DNA from: Eledone cirrhosa
Lineage: Eukaryota
Assembly (NCBI GenBank): GCA_964016885.1
Contig: OZ024745.1
Coordinates: 62,620,001 to 62,684,000 of the forward strand
Direction: 5' to 3'
Length of the DNA stretch: 64,000 nt
Position numbers and translations under genes: made by a program. The notes under the pieces were generated by a model. The model made no database searches and was not told the DNA's origin. It saw only the letters and a program-made list of their open reading frames with translations. Below are positions 1,437 through 62,944 of this stretch, piece by piece; within the stretch, counting starts at the first letter, position 1, and each line of letters begins with the position of its first letter.

Positions 1437-1506
1437 AACCATAGTAAGTACAGTGAATTTTTTGAAATTTATTTTGAAACTCTTTCTTATGTGTTAAACC
1501 TTGATT

Positions 1507-1556
<50 letters not shown>

Positions 1557-1566
<10 letters not shown>

Positions 1567-2441
1567 TAGGATTTCGCTTCAAGCATAGCTTTATACAATA
1601 TGTATAAGTATTTCGTATCTCCAAGGAAATACGGTTTTAGGAAGCCGTAGCTATGCAAACACCGGTGGGCTAACGCCCTCTGGTGATGTCCAGCAGAAGC
1701 AAGTGGGACAACCGTCTATGCATTTCAGGCTTAACTGGCCTTCGTCAGGACGGTCTCTCCCACCGCTTGCGACTGCTGGACTAGAAGACAGCCGAGAATA
1801 TATACATTTCTCGTCTGTGTAAATGAGGTGATTAATCTCATTTGCATATGAAGCTGCATAAGTTGACTTAACTTATAATAAAAAAGAAATAGGATTTCGC
1901 TTCAAGCATAGCTTTATACAATATGTATACATATTTCGTATCTCCAAGGAAATACGCTTTTAGGAAGCCGTAGCTATGCAAACACCGGTGGGCTAACGCC
2001 CTCTGGTGATGTCCTGTTGGCGCCAACTTATGCAGCTTCATATGCAAATTAGATTAATCACCTCATTTACACAGACGAGAAATGTATGTATTCTCGGCTG
2101 TCTTCTAGTCCAGCAGTCACAAGCGGTGGGAGGGACCTCCTGACGAAGGCCAGTTAAGCCTGAACTGCATAGACGGTTGTCCCCCTTGCTTCTGCTGGAC
2201 ATCACCAGAGGGCGTTAGCCCAACAGTGTTTGCATAACTACGGCTTCCTAAAACCGTATTTCCTTGGAGATACGAAATATTTATACATATTGTATAAAGC
2301 TATGCTTGAAGCGAAATCCTATTTCTTTTTTATTATAAGTTGAGACAACTTATGCAGCTTCATATGCAAATGATATTAATCACCTCATTTACACAGACGA
2401 GAAATGTATATAATCTCGGCTGTCTTCTAGTCCAGCAGTCA
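1557..2441. mobile_element. Retrozyme-like element, family A (323 bp monomer; 1.4 direct copies then 1.3 inverted copies), flanked by (TA)n
   Basis: The repeat restarts at 1564 and 1887. The reverse-complement copy runs 2024-2441. The junction is the palindrome GTTGGCGCCAAC. Contains a hammerhead. Confidence 0.85.
1711..1754 (-). ncRNA. Minimal type I hammerhead ribozyme (family A)
   Basis: ACCGTC-CTGACGA-AGGC cagttaa GCCT-GAAA-TGCA-TA-GACGGT. Perfect 6 bp stem I, 4 bp stem II, palindromic stem III. A mutated copy (GAAC) lies on + at 2135-2177. Confidence 0.9.
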
Positions 2442-2452
2442 TATATATATAT

Positions 2453-3238
2453 ATTTGTCTGACCCGAATTTTCTTGGTCGTTTTTTCGGCTGTGCGAATG
2501 ATTTTAAGCATTGTCTCAGTGTGTTGGTATTTAAACGTTAGTTATAGCTCTGGTTTATCCAAACTATTGAGCCCTTTGCCACGCATTTCGAAGATTGTGT
2601 TTCGCTATTTCGTGGGCCGAGATTCCGATTCTCGATAATTTATTTGTATTTACCTCCAATCTTTAGCTATTGACAGTTAATTTTATTGATTTTTTAGTTG
2701 ATCTTATTGACTGATGAATAGCTCATGTTAATTTTAACCCGTCTGTTGAGTACTCTAATTCGATATGTGATATTTTGTATTTTTACAATAATATACACTA
2801 CTGAATTCATTCGCCTAATATATTGGTTCCCTCCCTTGCTAGATCCCACGTGGATTTAGTAACGGGTTCCTTTGTATATTTGAACGAAATGCCTGTTGAG
2901 AAAGTGGTTTCCTCGTTCATCATTCTACCAGAAGCCGGATATTTTCTATGTAAGCTGGCGGTAACTGATTTAGGAGCCGCAGAAACCAAAATGCTGGAAT
3001 TTACTATCCTTCTAGCGGGTCCGGGTAAAGATTTTTCATTCATATATATTATTATTTGTCTGACCCGAATTTTCTTGGTCGTTTTTTCGGCTGTGCAAAT
3101 GATTTTAAGCATTGTGTCAGTGTGTTGGTATTTAAATGTTAGTTATAGCTCTGGTTTATCCAAACTATTGAGGCCTTTGCCACTCATTTCGAAGATTGTG
3201 TTTCGCTATTTCGTGGGCCGAGATTCCGATTCTCGATA

Positions 3239-3430: not shown

Positions 3431-3634
3431 GAAGAGAGAGGTAGAACACTGGAATGTAATATCCGTAGTGGTAGAGCACTCAGTCCATGGGACCAGTTAG
3501 GTAGAAGTGGTAACACAACAGTTAGTTCACCAGACCGAGAACAATTGTTTCACCTTAGCGGATCTTCAGCTGAAGATCTGCTAAGGTGAAACAATTGTTC
3601 TCGGTATGGTGAACTAACTGTTGTGTTACCACTT
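3430..3634. mobile_element. Family B hammerhead element with fold-back palindrome (3505-3634)
   Basis: 65 bp arms with 2 mismatches, centred on CAG|CTG. Each arm reads CTGAAGA-TC(C/T)GCTAAGGT-GAAAC-AATT-GTT-CTCGG. Confidence 0.85.
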
Positions 3635-3728
3635 ATATATATACATATATATAAATATATACATATATATAATACAAATAGTGAAAACAATGAAATTAAA
3701 CAAAATACGGGTACTTCATAGTAAAACA

Positions 3729-4519: not shown

Positions 4520-4700
<181 letters not shown>

Positions 4701-4703
4701 ATG

Positions 4704-4907
4704 AGTAGTAACACAAAAGTTAGTTGACCATACCGAGAACAATTGTTTCACCTTATGCGGATCTCCGGCTCGGACTGAAGATCCGCCTAAGTTGAAACAA
4801 TGGTACTCGGTATGGTGAAATAACTGCTGTGTTACTACTTCTACCAAACTCGTCCCATGGACTGAGTGCTCTACTACTACGGATATTACCTTCCAGGGGT
4901 CTACCCT
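4704..4907. mobile_element. Family B hammerhead element, fold-back copy with diverged arms
   Basis: Homologous to 3430-3634. The minus arm supplies stem I (CCGAG...CTCGG). The plus arm has CTGAAGA..GAAAC-AATG-GTA-CTCGG. Confidence 0.8.
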
Positions 4908-4908
4908 T

Positions 4909-4980
<72 letters not shown>

Positions 4981-5042
4981 CGTAAAATAAGAACATTTAA
5001 AAAAAAAAAAAAAAAAAATTAACTTACTTACTTAAATTTTCA

Positions 5043-5122
5043 CTCCAACTAATTAGTTTCTGCAATGGGATAAAGACATTTACGTAATGAACTGTTGAGA
5101 ATTTCATTGCGTCATCAGGGAG
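5043..5122 (-). ncRNA. Type I hammerhead (family C, inverted copy)
   Basis: Reverse complement of 5663-5742 with intact core. Confidence 0.8.
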
Positions 5123-5662
5123 ATCATTCTCAGCCAAGTCTGTCTTTATCCCATTGCAGAAACTAATTAGTTGGAGTGAAAATTTAAGTAAGTAAGTTAA
5201 TTTTTTAAAAGATTTTTTTTAAAATTTTCTTATTTTACGTCTTTTATATTATTGTTCTGCATCCTCCTGCATTGAACCACCTAGGTACTATGACATAACC
5301 TGTGTATTTGCTGGCATTAGCGTACATCTGTGCGCTTATGTTAGTAGATATATTAAATTATCTATATTTATCTCCAAATCACTGATTTGTCGAGCAAACC
5401 TGCCAAAACCACTTCTAAAATTTTTTTTTTTTTGGGGGGGGGGGTGTTAGTAGGCGTCTGTCATCTTACCATCCCATTCCTACTGACTAGCCTCTGTGTC
5501 ACGTGATTGATTCTTTAGAATCGGCCATATGACCAGTAGCAGTGAGAATTTTCAGTACCTGGAATCCAGTCCTCGATAGCTGTTCCATTTACCGAATTAT
5601 TATTATTATTTTTATGAGTCCCCAGTGTCCGCGCATTGCCTGGAGACTTGGCTGAGAATGAT

Positions 5663-5742
5663 CTCCCTGATGACGCAATGAAATTCTCAACAGTTCCTTA
5701 CGTAACTGTCTTTATCCCATTGCAGAAACTAATTAGTTGGAG
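5663..5742 (+). ncRNA. Type I hammerhead with extended stem II (family C)
   Basis: CTCC-CTGATGA-C-GCAATG[37 nt incl. ACAGTT/AACTGT hairpin]CATTGC-A-GAAAC-TAATTA-GTT-GGAG. Confidence 0.8.
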
Positions 5743-5959
5743 TGAAAATTTAAGTAAGTAAGTTAATTTAAAAAAAATTTTTTTTTTTAATTTTCTTATT
5801 TTACGTCTTTTATATTATTGTTCTGCATCCTCCTGCATTGAACCACCTAGGTACTATGACATAACCTGTGTATTTGCTGGCATTAACGTACATCTGTGCG
5901 CTTATGTTAGTAGATATATTAAATTATCTATATATATATATATATAGTATATATATATT

Positions 5960-6144: not shown

Positions 6145-6202
6145 CTGTAGACTTAGCACTTTCCTGTAAACAAGTGCTATTATGCCTTTTATCATGTTAC
6201 CT

Positions 6203-6272
6203 TATTTTATCTGATGAGAACACAAGTTTTCTCCCAGGATGAATTTGTATTCGAAATGCGCATAATAAAATA
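6203..6272 (+). ncRNA. Type I hammerhead ribozyme
   Basis: TATTTTAT-CTGATGA-GAA(C)ACAAGTTT..GAATTTGT(A)TTC-GAAA-TGCGCA-TA-ATAAAATA. Perfect 8 bp stem I, palindromic stem III. Sits in a 170 bp island between microsatellites. Confidence 0.88.
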
Positions 6273-6304
6273 CATGGAAATATTTTAACCATCTTTTAAT
6301 TCCT

Positions 6305-6582: not shown

Positions 6583-7069
<487 letters not shown>

Positions 7070-30225: not shown

Positions 30226-32185
30226 GTAAATTTGTATTCCAATGTTACTAAGTAGTTGCATTGGATGGAGTCAACCGACGTCAGAGATTGCTCAACGTGT
30301 AATAAAGTGTGTTTTAAAATCCGGAGAAAATATGGAGAAGAAGTTTATGAAGTGGAAATGCAGGTATAAAGAATTTATTAGGTAACAATTGTTTCTATAG
30401 TGTATGGGTTACCTATACCTCGCTATTTGAATAATATAAAAATATTATCATAAACCGAAGGTACACTGTAAGCAAACACATCATGTCGTCAGACCTTTGT
30501 ATTGGAATGATATGAAAATATTTTATACACTAGATAAAAGAGAAAGAAGGAGGTAGGAAGAGAAGGGAAGAGGGAAGTGAGTAAGGTGGAGGGAGTCCTG
30601 GGATTTAAAACTGTCAGACTAGTAGAGATTGTAAGGAGAGAATGTTTTCGCAGCAGTTAGCTTAATGAGGCGTGTTAGGGTTGGCGGGGGAAGTAAATTC
30701 TTCTAGTGGTGTTGTTCGGACAAAATTTAGTTAAAGGGGTCAAAGTGGTACAGAGTTACAGACAAGTTATCTAAAGGGGTCCAGAAAACAGTGTTTAGTA
30801 CTATTATTATAGAAAGCCATATCTTGTGTATAAACATATAAAACAGAAATTTGCAAACGGTGGTGTAAAAAGGTAACATTATATGCATTTAAAAAAAGAA
30901 AAAGTCGTTTTCAAACGATGGTTACAGTATAGTGAACGTTCAATTTTGCTGTTCAAAAGTTTGTTTACCGACGTTAAAATGCAGTATATCTCCAAATTGC
31001 ATAACTTGCAGAAGCGATGATTTTGCTCATATGCAGGCGCAGCTGCAATAATTTGCCAATCAAGGGAGAATGCTTGATTGTTCCTCCGGAGCTGCCAGGC
31101 TTTATCGGCGAGGGTTGTTACAGAGCGCATTTTCTCGTGCCTGATCGAAGATCGATGTTGGTATAGGCGAGCTTTGAAAGAAGTTGCGGTACATCCGACG
31201 TAATACCATTTGTTGGTTCCGGAATTTATTGTACATCGGTAGACAATATTGCGTGCTAGGCACTGGTTATTCAGTGGGCACGTACCTGGTTTGGTGCAGT
31301 TACAATTATTTTTATGTTTTGAAGTAGAATCATGGATAGTTTGGTGGGGTTATAGTTGCGTGTTAGTGCGTTGTATGTTGCTATGCTGGTGCGCTGAGTC
31401 ATTAGGGATGTACTTATTTAGTATTGCTGAGTTGAGTTTTTTAATTAGTTGTCTCTGTTAGGTGCGGTGGAGTATGAGAGTCTAATGGTGCGCGGGTTAA
31501 AGATTTTATAGTATTTATGTGAAGTTGTAAAGTGTTTATTGATTAGTGTGTATAATTGTGAGATAATCTTAGTGCTAATAGAAGTATTGTACACGGGGTT
31601 ATACCATATGTACTCTCTACGTCTGACTCTATTTGCTGGTTTGCACCTATTAGTATGCCTATTGATGTGTGTGTGTGGTGCAATACTAGTTCTACTTAGA
31701 TGTGTTTTATTCATAGTACTTATGTGGTTATCGTCAAGATATTCCATTTTCTCGCAGTAACCAGCTTTTCTAAGTGCGTCATTATAATATTCAGCATGCT
31801 CGTTGAAGGTCTGCAAATTAGACGACAGTTGGGAGATCCTTATGGATATATTTTTAGGGATAGATTTAATAATGGAATGGGGATAGTTCGATTTTACATT
31901 AACGTACTTGAGATTTTCATTAAGTTTGTGAAATGGCTCTATATTACCGTTATTAACGTTGAAGGTGACATCCAAGAAGTTGACCACCTTAAGATTGTGT
32001 TCGAAGGTACTATTAAGCCCTAGTTCTAAGAAAAGTTTTCAAATGTTTTTAAGTCGCCTTTCTACGTTTTGTTTGCTCATATTCTTGACTAATAGAAGTG
32101 TATCGTCGCGGTATATTCCGCCGTGGAGGTCCGTAAATTCGCTCTGGAGTCTGTGGGCTATATAGATCCCAACCAAATTTGTGCC
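30221..32185 (-). mobile_element. 5'-truncated Naiad-type Penelope-like element: disrupted RT + GIY-YIG ORF (32185-30879), 3' UTR and hammerhead-bearing terminus at (TA)n
   Basis: GGIYRDD, VNFLDVT, SNYP, WYNP, KIFNPRTIRLSYS, CNC..CPL..C, IVY..YYVG, CKLC, LLN..CNH. Frameshifts and stops present. Confidence 0.92.
30380..30496 (-). ncRNA. Type I hammerhead in the PLE 3' terminus, long stem II domain
   Basis: AGGT-CTGACGA-[~90 nt with hairpins]-GAAAC-AATT-GTT-ACCT. Confidence 0.72.
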
Positions 32186-59462: not shown

Positions 59463-59529
<67 letters not shown>

Positions 59530-59555
59530 TGTAATAAACAACATAAGGCAATTAT

Positions 59556-59613
59556 TCCATTTACCAGTGGTTTCTTAAAAGCAAAAAATGTTGCTTTCAA
59601 TCCTCAGAATGAA
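59556..59613 (-). ncRNA. Type I hammerhead ribozyme
   Basis: TTCATT-CTGAGGA-TTGAAAGCAA..TTGCTTTTAA-GAAAC-CACTG-GTA-AATGGA. Confidence 0.85.
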
Positions 59614-59710
59614 CAAATCCTGGTCTGTTTATTGAATTTGGATTTTAAAATCAAAAATCTCGGGTTATTGTTTTTAAAATCCAAATTCAATAAACAGACC
59701 AGGATTTTTT

Positions 59711-59764
59711 CATTCTGAGGATTGAAAGCAAAATATTTTGCTTTTAAGAAACCACTGGTAAATG
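59711..59764 (+). ncRNA. Type I hammerhead ribozyme (mirror copy)
   Basis: CATT-CTGAGGA-TTGAAAGCAAAA ta TTTTGCTTTTAA-GAAAC-CACTG-GTA-AATG. Confidence 0.82.
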
Positions 59765-59854
59765 CCTTATGTTGTTTATTACATAACTATTAAGCTCTAT
59801 TACCTACATAGAGCACTCTTTTTTCCTGGACTTTTCCGACGGAATTACTTCATT

Positions 59855-59896
<42 letters not shown>

Positions 59897-59968
59897 GTAA
59901 TAATAATAAATTTGAAGACTAAGATCTAAAGAGGGCTCGATAAGGATAAATATATATCAAATATATAA

Positions 59969-61699
59969 GTACCTGTAACTAAGGATTACCGTAAAACTAA
60001 TCGGAGCGTCATTAATGAAATCAACGACGCTGGGTTTGAAATCACCTCTGATCTCAACATCCTGGACCGGGCTGAACCTCTGGACCATATTTCTCCCCAC
60101 TTTACCCTGAAGGATCACAAATCCAATTTTCCGAACAACCCCTCTATTCGGCTTATCAACCCTACGAAGGCCGATTTAGGTAGACTTAGTAAAAGGATTC
60201 TTGATAGAATTATACCTGAAATTGTAAGTGTGGCCCCTCTTGCACTGTGGAACAATTCTTTCGCGGTGATTGATTGGTTCAACGGCATATGCAACAAGGA
60301 GCATTGCCGTTTTATCCAATTCGACGTCAATAATTACTACTCCTCCATCACTTTACCACTTCTCCTTAGAGCTTTCAATTTCGCTAAAACACTCACAGTA
60401 GTTAAGGATTTCGAAGATGATGTCATCCTTAATGCCCGTAAGTCGGTGATTAATTTCGACGACTCTATTTGGATAAAAAAATCTAATAGTACCCCATTCG
60501 ACGTGAGTATGGGCGCCAGCGATTCTGCTGAGGTTACTGATCTTATCGGCCTTTTCCTTCTTTTCTCTATCAAGGAAGAATTCCCCAACGTGGGCGATGG
60601 TTTGTACCGTGATGATGGTCTTTTGACCATGACTAAGTGCGGCCCACGTGCTTGCGACAGGTTCAGAAAATAACTCACAGCCTTCTTTAAACGCTTCAAC
60701 CTCTCCATACAGTTTGAGGCCAACCTCTCGGTGGTTAATTACTTCGACGTTACCCTCAATTTATCGAATGGCTTGCATTACCCGTATAGAAAGCCAAATA
60801 ATACGCTTATTTACATAAGTAAGCATTTTAACCATCCTGCCAGCATGACCAAGAACCTGGTAAGAAAGGTTTCTTTGAGGCTTTCCCGTCTATCTAATAA
60901 CGAGCATAAATTCAACGACCATTCCACATATTACAATGAAGTTCTTGCTCGGAGTAGATTTGTCGATTAGGTATCATATACAGAGTACGAGAATAAACCT
61001 AGAAGAAATAGATCCCGACGCATTATATGGTATAACCCACCATATAATATGGAGGTGGCCACACCATTAGCTAAGATCTTTATCTCCCTTATTAGGAAGC
61101 ATTTTCCCCCTACACATAAATATAGTAAAATTTTTAATAGAAATACTATTATAATTTCTTACTCTACGACTCCTAACCTTGCACATAACATCACAGCTTC
61201 AAATTTAGCTAACCTACCCAGCCGTAGTAACACGTGCATCCCTGTATTTAGTACTAACTGTAATTGTAGGAATCGGGTTGACTGCCCCCTATCCGGGAAA
61301 TGCCTCTCTAGTAACATTGTCTACAAATGTAAGGTTGAAACACCCACGTCCCGTAGGGCCTACATAGGATTAACCGCCAATAGATTCAAGCAGCGTCTTT
61401 ACAGTCATACCCATTCTTTTCGTTACCCTTTAAGAAGGAATATGACGTCACTTTCAGCTTATATCTGAAGTCTAAAAGATGACCACACACAATATAAGTT
61501 ACACTGGGAGATCCTAGTTAGGGCTAGATCGTATAACGGAAATAAAAGACCATGTGACCTCTGCACCGCTGAGGCCCCGGAAATAGTCTACGCCAAAGAC
61601 CGCATCTTAAACAAAAAATCTGAGGCATTTTCGGCTTGTAAACATAAATTGCACAAAACTTTCCTGTATTACAGCCCCACATTATACCCTAACGGATAG
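59969..61699 (+). pseudogene. Naiad-type Penelope-like element ORF (RT + Cys linker + GIY-YIG), 5'-truncated, one frame with three premature stops
   Basis: TLKDHK, RLINP, FIQFDVNNYYSSI, FDVSMGASDSAEVTDLIG, GLYRDDGL, WYNPP, CNCR..CPL..C, IVY..AYIG, CDLC. Stops at 60671, 60968 and 61466. A TG-rich 3' UTR runs to ~62400. Confidence 0.93.
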
Positions 61700-62379
61700 T
61701 ACGAACTATACGCGGATATTTTACGTCTTGATGTGGTAACTAAGTATATGTTATGTTTATACCATTACTTATTTGTATAGGTAAGTATATATTACCTGTA
61801 TGTTTGGTGAAGGTATGTATACTTTCTCGTACGTATACTTGATTTTATATGTTATGGCGTATATATTACATATTCTGGTACATATGCTTTTGGTTATGTG
61901 TATACGTGAGTTTTGCGTCTGTGTGAGTATGCGGGTTCGTACGTGTGTAGGGTCTGTCTATATGTGTACTTCGTGTTTTGGTTGAAGTAGTTTCCGAACA
62001 TATGTGTATTTACATGTAGGTATCTGTGCGCGCTTGTTATAAATGTATTTATTTATATACGTTTATTTAATTATATGTATGCACGCGCACACACACACAC
62101 ATATATATTTATATTTTTTTTTTCATATATATTTTTATGTGTATTTGGTGTATACATTCGTATGCCTGTGGGTACAGGCGTTGCGTGGGTTCTGTATGTG
62201 CGTGTGGTTTTTTTTTTGCTTTTTTTAGTGTACGTGCGTGTATTTGTATATCTTGGCGAGTATTTCCGCGTATGCTTGTGTATGTACGTATATGGATGCG
62301 TGTATGTATTTATTTAATTTCAATTACCTCTGTATTTTATTTACTTTATTCTTAACTCTGAAGCCGAGAACCATTCGAT

Positions 62380-62765
62380 TTCCTAGTTAGAATTTTACTC
62401 TACGACTTCAGTTATACCATTTACGTGGTTTTGTCTTTGCGTGCAATTATTCTCCCCGCTCCACATATGACGTATTATCTTCGTTCTTTGTTCGTTCATT
62501 GCCAGAGAACGTCTCTATGAACCACCTAATAGAATATTAGTGTACGACATCTTTTATACCATAATCGTGGTTTTGTCTTTGCGTGTAATTGTTTTTTATC
62601 GCTCCAAATAATTGTTTCTACTTTAGGCACAAGGCCAGCAATTACCCAGTGCATTACTGGTACTTTATTTTATCGACCCCGTAAGGATGAAAGGCAAACA
62701 AATAATGACGTATTATATTCGTTTTTTCCCGTTCTTTGCCAGGGTACGTTTCCACGAACCAAAGT
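62380..62765. repeat. ~145 bp tandem duplication interrupted by a truncated SINE (62608-62697, minus)
   Basis: TACGAC..TATACCAT..CGTGGTTTTGTCTTTGCGTG and ATGACGTATTAT..GCCAG each occur twice. Confidence 0.7.
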
Positions 62766-62944
62766 ATCGTCTTCCTATCTTCCTCCGGTTGCAACGATTT
62801 TTGAAATATAGACTTTGAAATATTCACGTCCAGTAGGTATATTGGTGTTGTACTAGGCTGAGTGTAATAATAATAAACTAATAATAATAATCAAGGGCGT
62901 TGCCCCAGCATGGCCTCACCCAGATGGCTGGAAAAGGTAAAAGA

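What the first reader, a model, noticed from the sequence alone, without database searches (positions are those of the whole stretch)
1557..2441. Family A: 323 bp hammerhead monomer in tandem, then inverted
Seen: 1.4 direct units, a GTTGGCGCCAAC hairpin junction, then 1.3 inverted units, with circularly permuted ends and no ORF. Established: non-LTR retrozymes are tandem monomers of a few hundred nt with one type I hammerhead, and give circular RNAs. Inference: greater-than-unit-length copies come from reverse transcription around a circular ~323 nt RNA.
Basis: partly seen in the sequence, partly recalled or inferred. Interest (0 to 1): 0.78.

Follow-up and report, generated by a model that had tools for sequence, protein, structure and literature searches.

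The report
Ribozyme mini-retroelement copied by Penelope enzymes
This is one of more than a thousand genomic copies of a 323-base, protein-less repeat with a hammerhead-ribozyme sequence; the way its copies begin and end indicates that Penelope-type retrotransposon enzymes likely pasted it in, probably by reading around a small circular RNA that has not yet been observed.

Summary
Confirmed: a 1.4-unit arm and an inverted 1.3-unit arm of a 323-bp unit, with one intact type I hammerhead sequence (minus strand, cut 1717/1716) and one mutated copy. The family has at least 1,244 hammerhead 14-mer matches. Copies do not end at random: 217 of 247 arms end at one of two sites about 39 nt apart, mostly in (TA)n, and 61 of 65 head-to-head pairs carry one of each. 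This is the Penelope-like (PLE) 'tail' signature; the genome's own Hydra-type PLE shows the same two-end pattern. Arms run through the ribozyme site without stop or scar (93 of 116 cross, 1 stops), 39 of 116 exceed one unit, and both arms and successive turns usually share a haplotype. It fits a non-LTR retrozyme mobilised in trans by a PLE, with a circular template favoured (about 60%) over an uncleaved tandem transcript. It is not the pseudo-LTR of the four PLE families examined. The GTTGGCGCCAAC hairpin is private to this locus, which has one hammerhead per arm and cannot itself release a monomer. No RNA evidence; helper PLE not identified.

The parts
1506..1559 (.). (TA)n target tract at the left end
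   Evidence: 107 of 117 arms of this end class run into a TA/CA repeat
1560..2014 (-). Main arm, 1.4 units (q196 to q323, a full turn, then the outer fixed end E1)
   Evidence: E1 modal last matching base q328, range mostly q323-328
1564..1886 (-). One complete 323-nt unit, 42.7% GC, strongly folded
   Evidence: fold -113 kcal/mol, z -6.7; GC
1560..1597 (-). Tail: the about 39 nt between the inner fixed end E2 (q289, window 1598) and E1
   Evidence: E2 modal last matching base q289, spread q272-290 because of TA microhomology; E2 falls in an AU hairpin loop in the predicted fold
1710..1755 (-). Type I hammerhead, intact core: helix I 7 bp, CUGACGA, helix II 4 bp, GAAA, short palindromic helix III (UGCA), cut predicted between 1717 and 1716; helix I extends through an internal loop to about 1690-1775
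2015..2027 (.). Head-to-head junction with the 12-nt palindrome at 2016-2027; private to this locus, built from the unit's own q13-25 stem-loop sequence
2024..2440 (+). Inverted arm, 1.3 units (q22 to q323, then q1-116); outer end is atypical (not E2)
   Evidence: 30 of 247 arms have atypical ends
2133..2178 (+). Second hammerhead copy with GAAC in place of GAAA and a one-base loss in helix I; predicted inactive
2441..2454 (.). Short (TA)n tract at the right end

Best explanation
This is one insertion of a non-coding 323-bp hammerhead repeat family (a non-LTR retrozyme) whose copies end at two fixed sites about 39 nt apart in (TA)n and are joined head-to-head, likely written by a Penelope-like RT/GIY-YIG protein acting in trans and probably reading around a circular 323-nt RNA. 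Shown from sequence: the unit, ribozyme motif, copy number, two-end rule, longer-than-unit arms, no stop or scar at the ribozyme site, and shared haplotypes within a locus. Inferred: (1) loci with two hammerheads in tandem are transcribed, cut pairwise by a dimeric hammerhead and ligated to a circle in which the lone ribozyme is idle; (2) the PLE protein nicks both strands of a (TA)n tract and primes one cDNA at E1 and one at E2, usually on the same RNA or the same lineage of RNA; (3) both cDNAs run the same way round, displacing each other, stop at scattered points and are end-joined, giving tandem-then-inverted arms. This locus itself is a dead-end copy with one hammerhead per arm.
For: Family size: 1,244 exact hammerhead 14-mers vs 3 control, 376 exact 37-mers. 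Ends: E1 117, E2 100, other 30 of 247 arms in 134 loci; E1+E2 61, E1+E1 3, E2+E2 1; 29 of 30 in the set least biased for length, p 3e-8. The autonomous Hydra-type PLE1 has two fixed ends 88 nt apart (25 and 21 ends) with one of each in L182, L183, L188, L189. Published PLE features match: inverted 5'-truncated copy and 30-40 bp tail at one end (PMC8557442); both strands cut and extended, two internal RT starts defining the tail (PMC11167929). 93 of 116 arms cross the cut site, 1 stops within 3 nt, 39 exceed 323 nt, longest 870; 0 indels at q170-171 in about 215 passes. Same template: rare variants shared 63 vs 6.4 expected between arms and 16 vs 2.5 between turns; haplotype discordance 10/102 between turns, 20/186 between arms, 43% between loci. 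Fold-back excluded in 30 of 61 pairs and L1-type twin priming in 60 of 61. No homogeneous master array found: 29 tandem-hammerhead hits are all isolated; of 17 hits of a second tandem pattern only one array appears, and its diagnostic variant is at 0.8% in dispersed copies. Stop rate roughly doubles after about one turn.
Against: No RNA was observed. Three-way comparisons are mixed: 7 variants in both turns and the other arm, but 8 shared by the two first turns only (chance about 1.7), 5 within the arm only, 2 other; L219 has two linked subfamily variants that differ between successive turns. An estimated 12-22% of pairs disagree in haplotype. The 50-vs-4 within-arm figure is inflated by one minor subfamily (28 of 50 from L218, L219, L229). 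In the one PLE tested in vitro, uncleaved RNA is the main substrate (PMC11167929). No helper was found: none of four PLE families shares sequence with the unit, measured tails are 88 and 109 nt, and junctions to PLE pieces involve three different families. Gene conversion between inverted arms could add to variant sharing. A master array may be lost or unassembled.
Confidence: 0.6

Rival explanations
1. Same element and same PLE machinery, but the template is a linear, uncleaved tandem transcript (or a dimer circle) from multi-unit source loci; circles, if made, are a by-product.
For: Also predicts no stop or scar at the ribozyme site. Excess of variants shared only by the two first turns (8 vs about 1.7); heterogeneous turns in L219; rising stop rate with length fits a finite template; uncleaved RNA is the substrate in vitro for PAc; a 10.8-unit array exists.
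Against: Several haplotype lineages each give multi-turn arms with matching turns, which would need a homogeneous array per lineage; tandem-pattern searches show none. Truncating copies cannot lengthen their descendants. Two hammerheads in one transcript are expected to cut as a dimer (PMC4209133).
Confidence: 0.28
2. The copies are orphan pseudo-LTR fragments of an autonomous PLE (5'-truncated insertions), not an independent element.
For: Identical insertion grammar; short head-to-head pseudo-LTR pieces of PLE1 exist (L188); one locus has PLE RT sequence directly upstream.
Against: Arms that continue upstream return to the unit's own end after 323 nt instead of entering a UTR or ORF; 1 of 147 loci has an adjoining upstream PLE frame, and that family's own pseudo-LTR is different; 59 unpaired 5' flanks share no common sequence at the junction.
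Confidence: 0.05
3. The inverted arm arises by self-priming (fold-back) at a hairpin junction, as proposed for rotifer PLEs, or by later DNA rearrangement of a satellite unit.
For: This locus has a perfect 12-nt palindrome at the junction; self-priming on an antisense template is proposed in PMC3846280; the long array shows a 5-unit DNA-level duplication.
Against: Palindromes at 2 of 91 junctions; the inverted arm is not contained in the main arm here or in 30 of 61 pairs, and arm lengths are uncorrelated; fixed ends in (TA)n at dispersed loci are not a satellite pattern.
Confidence: 0.05

Closest known systems
Metazoan non-LTR retrozymes (Cervera and de la Pena 2020, PMC7229834; Li, Clavereau and Pollet 2026, 10.64898/2026.07.22.740005)
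   Same: 150-450 bp unit, GC under 50%, one type I hammerhead, no ORF, tandem copies; helix III of one pair plus a palindromic tetraloop like axolotl HHR_Amex1; PLEs proposed as mobiliser and circles as template.
   Different: Mostly dispersed 0.3-2.7-unit arms in head-to-head pairs, not arrays; no sequence match to a pseudo-LTR of the four resident PLE families examined; RNA and cleavage untested here. The parts of these papers that I read do not map insertion ends.
EN+ Penelope-like elements, Hydra clade (Craig et al. 2021, PMC8557442)
   Same: 5'-truncated partial tandem, adjacent inverted copy, tail at one end only, (TA)n target, hammerhead upstream of the ends. PLE1 and PLE2 of this genome carry RW[KR], DKT, CxCX5C, CxxC and CxH motifs.
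   Different: No ORF; tail about 39 nt vs 88 and 109 nt in the two resident families measured.
PAc (Poseidon of Anolis) in vitro mechanism (Frangieh et al. 2024, PMC11167929)
   Same: Two internal RT start sites that define the tail, AT-rich target, both strands extended, predicted dimer.
   Different: No strand preference for start site was seen in vitro, whereas here the two ends are almost always one of each; uncleaved linear RNA was the substrate in vitro.

Membership tests
non-LTR retrozyme | Repeat unit of 150-450 bp, GC under 50%, no ORF | tested here: met
   323 bp, 42.7% GC, no ORF of 100 aa
non-LTR retrozyme | One type I hammerhead per unit | tested here: met
   descriptor match, 0 of 20,000 shuffles; 12 core bases intact in 172 of 223 passes; strict descriptor met in 43 of 99 passes; no Rfam match on the window
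non-LTR retrozyme | [quoted passage not shown] | tested here: met
   29 tandem-hammerhead hits and a 10.8-unit array
non-LTR retrozyme | At least two consecutive hammerheads at this locus ('active' criterion of Li et al.) | tested here: not met
   one hammerhead per arm, on opposite strands, the second mutated
non-LTR retrozyme | Expressed as linear and circular unit-length RNA; self-cleaves | not testable with these tools
   needs RNA data or bench work
non-LTR retrozyme | Target-site duplication longer than 4 bp when present | tested here: inconclusive
   ends lie in (TA)n, which hides duplications
PLE-mobilised insertion | 5' truncation, adjacent inverted copy, 30-40 bp tail at one end | tested here: met
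   scattered 5' ends; 61 of 65 pairs E1+E2; modal spacing 39 nt
PLE-mobilised insertion | (TA)n target as in the Hydra and Naiad clades | tested here: met
   107 of 117 E1 and 84 of 100 E2 ends, vs 6 of 30 other ends
PLE-mobilised insertion | Recognition sequence shared with an autonomous partner | tested here: inconclusive
   no significant match in four families; other families not examined
autonomous PLE / pseudo-LTR of one | RT and GIY-YIG ORF within the repeated unit | tested here: not met
   the unit closes on itself after 323 nt

The most novel reading that the evidence does not exclude
The family preserves a genomic footprint of rolling-circle reverse transcription by a PLE dimer: two active sites, each primed by one strand of a cut (TA)n target, start 39 nt apart on one 323-nt RNA circle and chase each other round it. 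That would explain in one model the PLE tail, the inverted arm and the tandem units of animal retrozymes.
Probability: 0.42. Interest if true: 0.72.

Novelty: new member of a known kind. Interest (0 to 1): 0.52.

Why it matters
How animal retrozymes move and how PLEs make their tandem/inverted/tail structures are both described as open in the papers read. A 323-nt element with over a thousand independent insertions gives a countable readout: one end with and one without the tail, both arms from one template lineage, and read-through of the ribozyme site. It also offers a very small substrate for testing whether a PLE protein copies an RNA circle.

Tried and rejected
Rfam: no hammerhead hit on the window region; a genome search with Hammerhead_1 scored only 74 candidates and its 18 hits do not include this locus, uninformative. 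Sequencing runs: no RNA holder listed; three runs of unknown kind laid on the locus behaved like repeat-rich genomic contigs and say nothing on expression. Helper search: four PLE families taken from the window and from chimeric junctions showed no significant similarity to the unit; L050 first looked like a related family but is a 24-nt inverted piece of the same unit. Pfam gave only a weak GIY-YIG hit (E 7e-4) for one of four window PLE fragments. Pile-up of 5' ends at the ribozyme cut: not seen. Hairpin junction as a family feature, fold-back synthesis and L1-type twin priming: rejected. The long array as master: rejected on its private variant. Earlier scan notes: two look-ups, nothing. 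Rows dropped: duplicate loci; L145; L139 (a duplicated locus) in between-locus and between-arm counts; L214-216, L224, L225 as overlaps; 23 best-BLAST and 8 multi-hammerhead loci. The host taxon was not tested; an octopod is a guess from genome size and microsatellite load, used only to aim literature searches.

Full report
Observation. The window holds a 323-bp unit 1.4 times in tandem (1560-2014) and 1.3 times inverted (2024-2440), 96-98% alike, between (TA)n tracts. Read on the minus strand the unit has a type I hammerhead: 7-bp helix I, CUGACGA, 4-bp helix II, GAAA, a short palindromic helix III and a cut after 1717; 0 of 20,000 shuffles match the descriptor. The inverted arm's copy has GAAC and fails. 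Rfam does not report it. The unit folds far better than shuffles (z -6.7). No ORF overlaps it. I use unit coordinates q1 = 1886 to q323 = 1564.

Family. The genome (3.0 Gb) gave 2,027 candidates of which 40 were scored, 376 exact matches to a 37-nt hammerhead stretch and 1,244 to a 14-mer against 3 control matches. I fetched 150 loci by three routes (best BLAST, hammerhead 37-mer, a 22-mer near the 3' end) and later 17 more; after removing duplicates and L145, 134 loci with 247 arms were aligned to the unit with wrap-around. Arms differ from the family majority by a median 2.5%.

Ends. 117 arms end at E1 and 100 at E2, 30 elsewhere; 107 and 84 of them run into a TA or CA repeat, against 6 of the 30. 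The modal last matching bases are q328 and q289, about 39 nt apart, blurred by TA microhomology. 90 of 134 loci have head-to-head arms. Where both outer ends are canonical, 61 pairs are E1+E2, 3 E1+E1 and 1 E2+E2; in the 22-mer set it is 29 of 30. 5' ends are spread over the whole unit and arms are joined with short overlaps or inserts. The window copy has an E1 end on the left and an atypical end on the right.

This is PLE grammar. Craig et al. (PMC8557442; passages, section 11 and a supplement search seen) describe partial tandems, an adjacent inverted 5'-truncated copy, a 30-40 bp tail often at one end only, and (TA)n targeting by Hydra and Naiad elements. Frangieh et al. (PMC11167929; parts 1-2 of 4) show both strands cut and extended and two internal RT starts that define the tail. 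Fragments in the window led to two abundant families with intact frames of 713 and 778 aa (29,017 and 50,071 candidates) that carry Hydra-clade motifs. PLE1 has two fixed ends 88 nt apart, one of each in four loci where both are visible; PLE2 has two ends 109 nt apart. None of four families examined shares significant sequence with the unit. A PLE frame adjoins an arm upstream in sense at 1 of 147 loci, and other junctions involve other families, so the helper is not identified and the unit is not their pseudo-LTR.

Template. In the 22-mer set (116 arms, 74 loci) 93 arms cross the ribozyme cut site, 1 stops within 3 nt of it, 7 cross it twice, 39 are longer than one unit and the longest is 870 nt; over all arms there is no indel at q170-171 in about 215 passes. 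A linear cut monomer with sloppy jumps is therefore unlikely. The two arms copy overlapping parts of the unit in 58 of 65 pairs; the E2 arm is not contained in the E1 arm in 30 of 61 pairs and only 1 of 61 E1 arms is 60 nt or shorter, which excludes fold-back and L1-type twin priming as general routes. The self-priming model of PMC3846280 (passages) expects junction palindromes; they occur at 2 of 91 junctions, this locus being one. Arms of a locus share rare variants 63 times against 6.4 expected, successive turns 16 against 2.5; at four haplotype columns discordance is 10 of 102 between turns, 20 of 186 between arms and 43% between loci. So both arms and successive turns usually come from one template lineage, while several lineages exist.

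Circle or tandem transcript. For a circle: turns match as well as arms do; several lineages yield multi-turn arms; 29 tandem-hammerhead hits are all isolated; the one long array found (10.8 units, E2 end) has a variant in 10 of 11 units that is at 0.8% elsewhere, so it is not the master, and it also shows a later 5-unit duplication; stops double after about one turn, with 16 against about 7 expected near E2. The helix III type is reported to cut as a dimer and to rest in monomeric circles (PMC4209133, passages; PMC7229834, passages and parts 2 and 4 of 6). Against: three-way patterns are 7 all-shared (one counted twice), 8 first-turns-only, 5 within-arm-only and 2 other; 12-22% of pairs look like different templates; the larger within-arm count is inflated by one subfamily; gene conversion is not excluded; uncleaved RNA is the substrate in vitro for PAc. 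I put the circle at about 60% and the linear or dimer template at about 28%. This locus, with one hammerhead per strand, cannot release a monomer.

What is known. Retrozymes as non-autonomous PLE derivatives are argued by Li et al. 2026 (parts 1-3 of 5) from co-occurrence and pseudo-LTR similarity, and circles as templates for more-than-unit copying were proposed in 2014 and 2020. Eight full-text searches listed no paper on this family, on insertion-end mapping of a retrozyme, or on the one-of-each rule measured with shared variants; subscription papers are not covered, the supplement of PMC7229834 could not be read and bioRxiv supplements are closed, so a prior listing of the family cannot be excluded.

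Verdict. A real, new member of a known class, with an unusually clear record of how it was inserted. The PLE-driven, two-start, same-template insertion is well supported; the circular intermediate is likely but unproven. Interest 0.52.

Noticed in passing
window 3440-3637 and 4699-4905: A second hammerhead-like mini-family (CUGAAGA...GAAA) in head-to-head pairs, one arm about 70 nt longer than the other, ending in (TA)n: apparently the same two-end grammar.
   Followed up: no
window 4976-5250, 5644-5940, 6200-6300, 6715-6972, 59525-59790: Further short inverted or hammerhead-like repeats next to (TA)n; 6715-6972 resembles the hammerhead-plus-tail region of the third and fourth PLE families.
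   Followed up: no
window 59894-62810 (+) and 30879-32038 (-): Copies of two very abundant Hydra-type PLE families with intact 713-aa and 778-aa frames elsewhere in the genome; PLE1's ribozyme-like motif reads CAGAAGA instead of CUGANGA. The Craig et al. supplement search showed only Naiad rows among the first two of four Octopus hits.
   Followed up: partly
L145 1331-4635 (G000:C2:83.92 Mb): A 10.8-unit array of the family, 5'-truncated with an E2 end, one private variant in 10 of 11 units and a later 5-unit duplication; a candidate single long rolling-circle product.
   Followed up: partly
L030 1827-1906, L083 1-1372, L219 1961-2760: Family arms fused directly to pieces of three different PLE families of similar age; template switches or shared (TA)n targeting.
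   Followed up: partly
window 1840-1847; L231-L269 3' UTRs: An octamer (ATGCAAAT) at q40-47 of the unit, and a similar TCATTTGCATA...CATAA stretch in the opposite orientation about 110 nt before the hammerhead of two PLE families; a possible internal promoter element, noticed after the fact.
   Followed up: no
L209-L212 (G000:C4:204.1-204.6 Mb): A cluster of tandem, near-identical intact PLE2 units about 3.0 kb apart, possibly an active source.
   Followed up: no
window 19264-22490: A 3.2-kb degenerate (AT)n tract directly followed by a PLE1 RT fragment.
   Followed up: no
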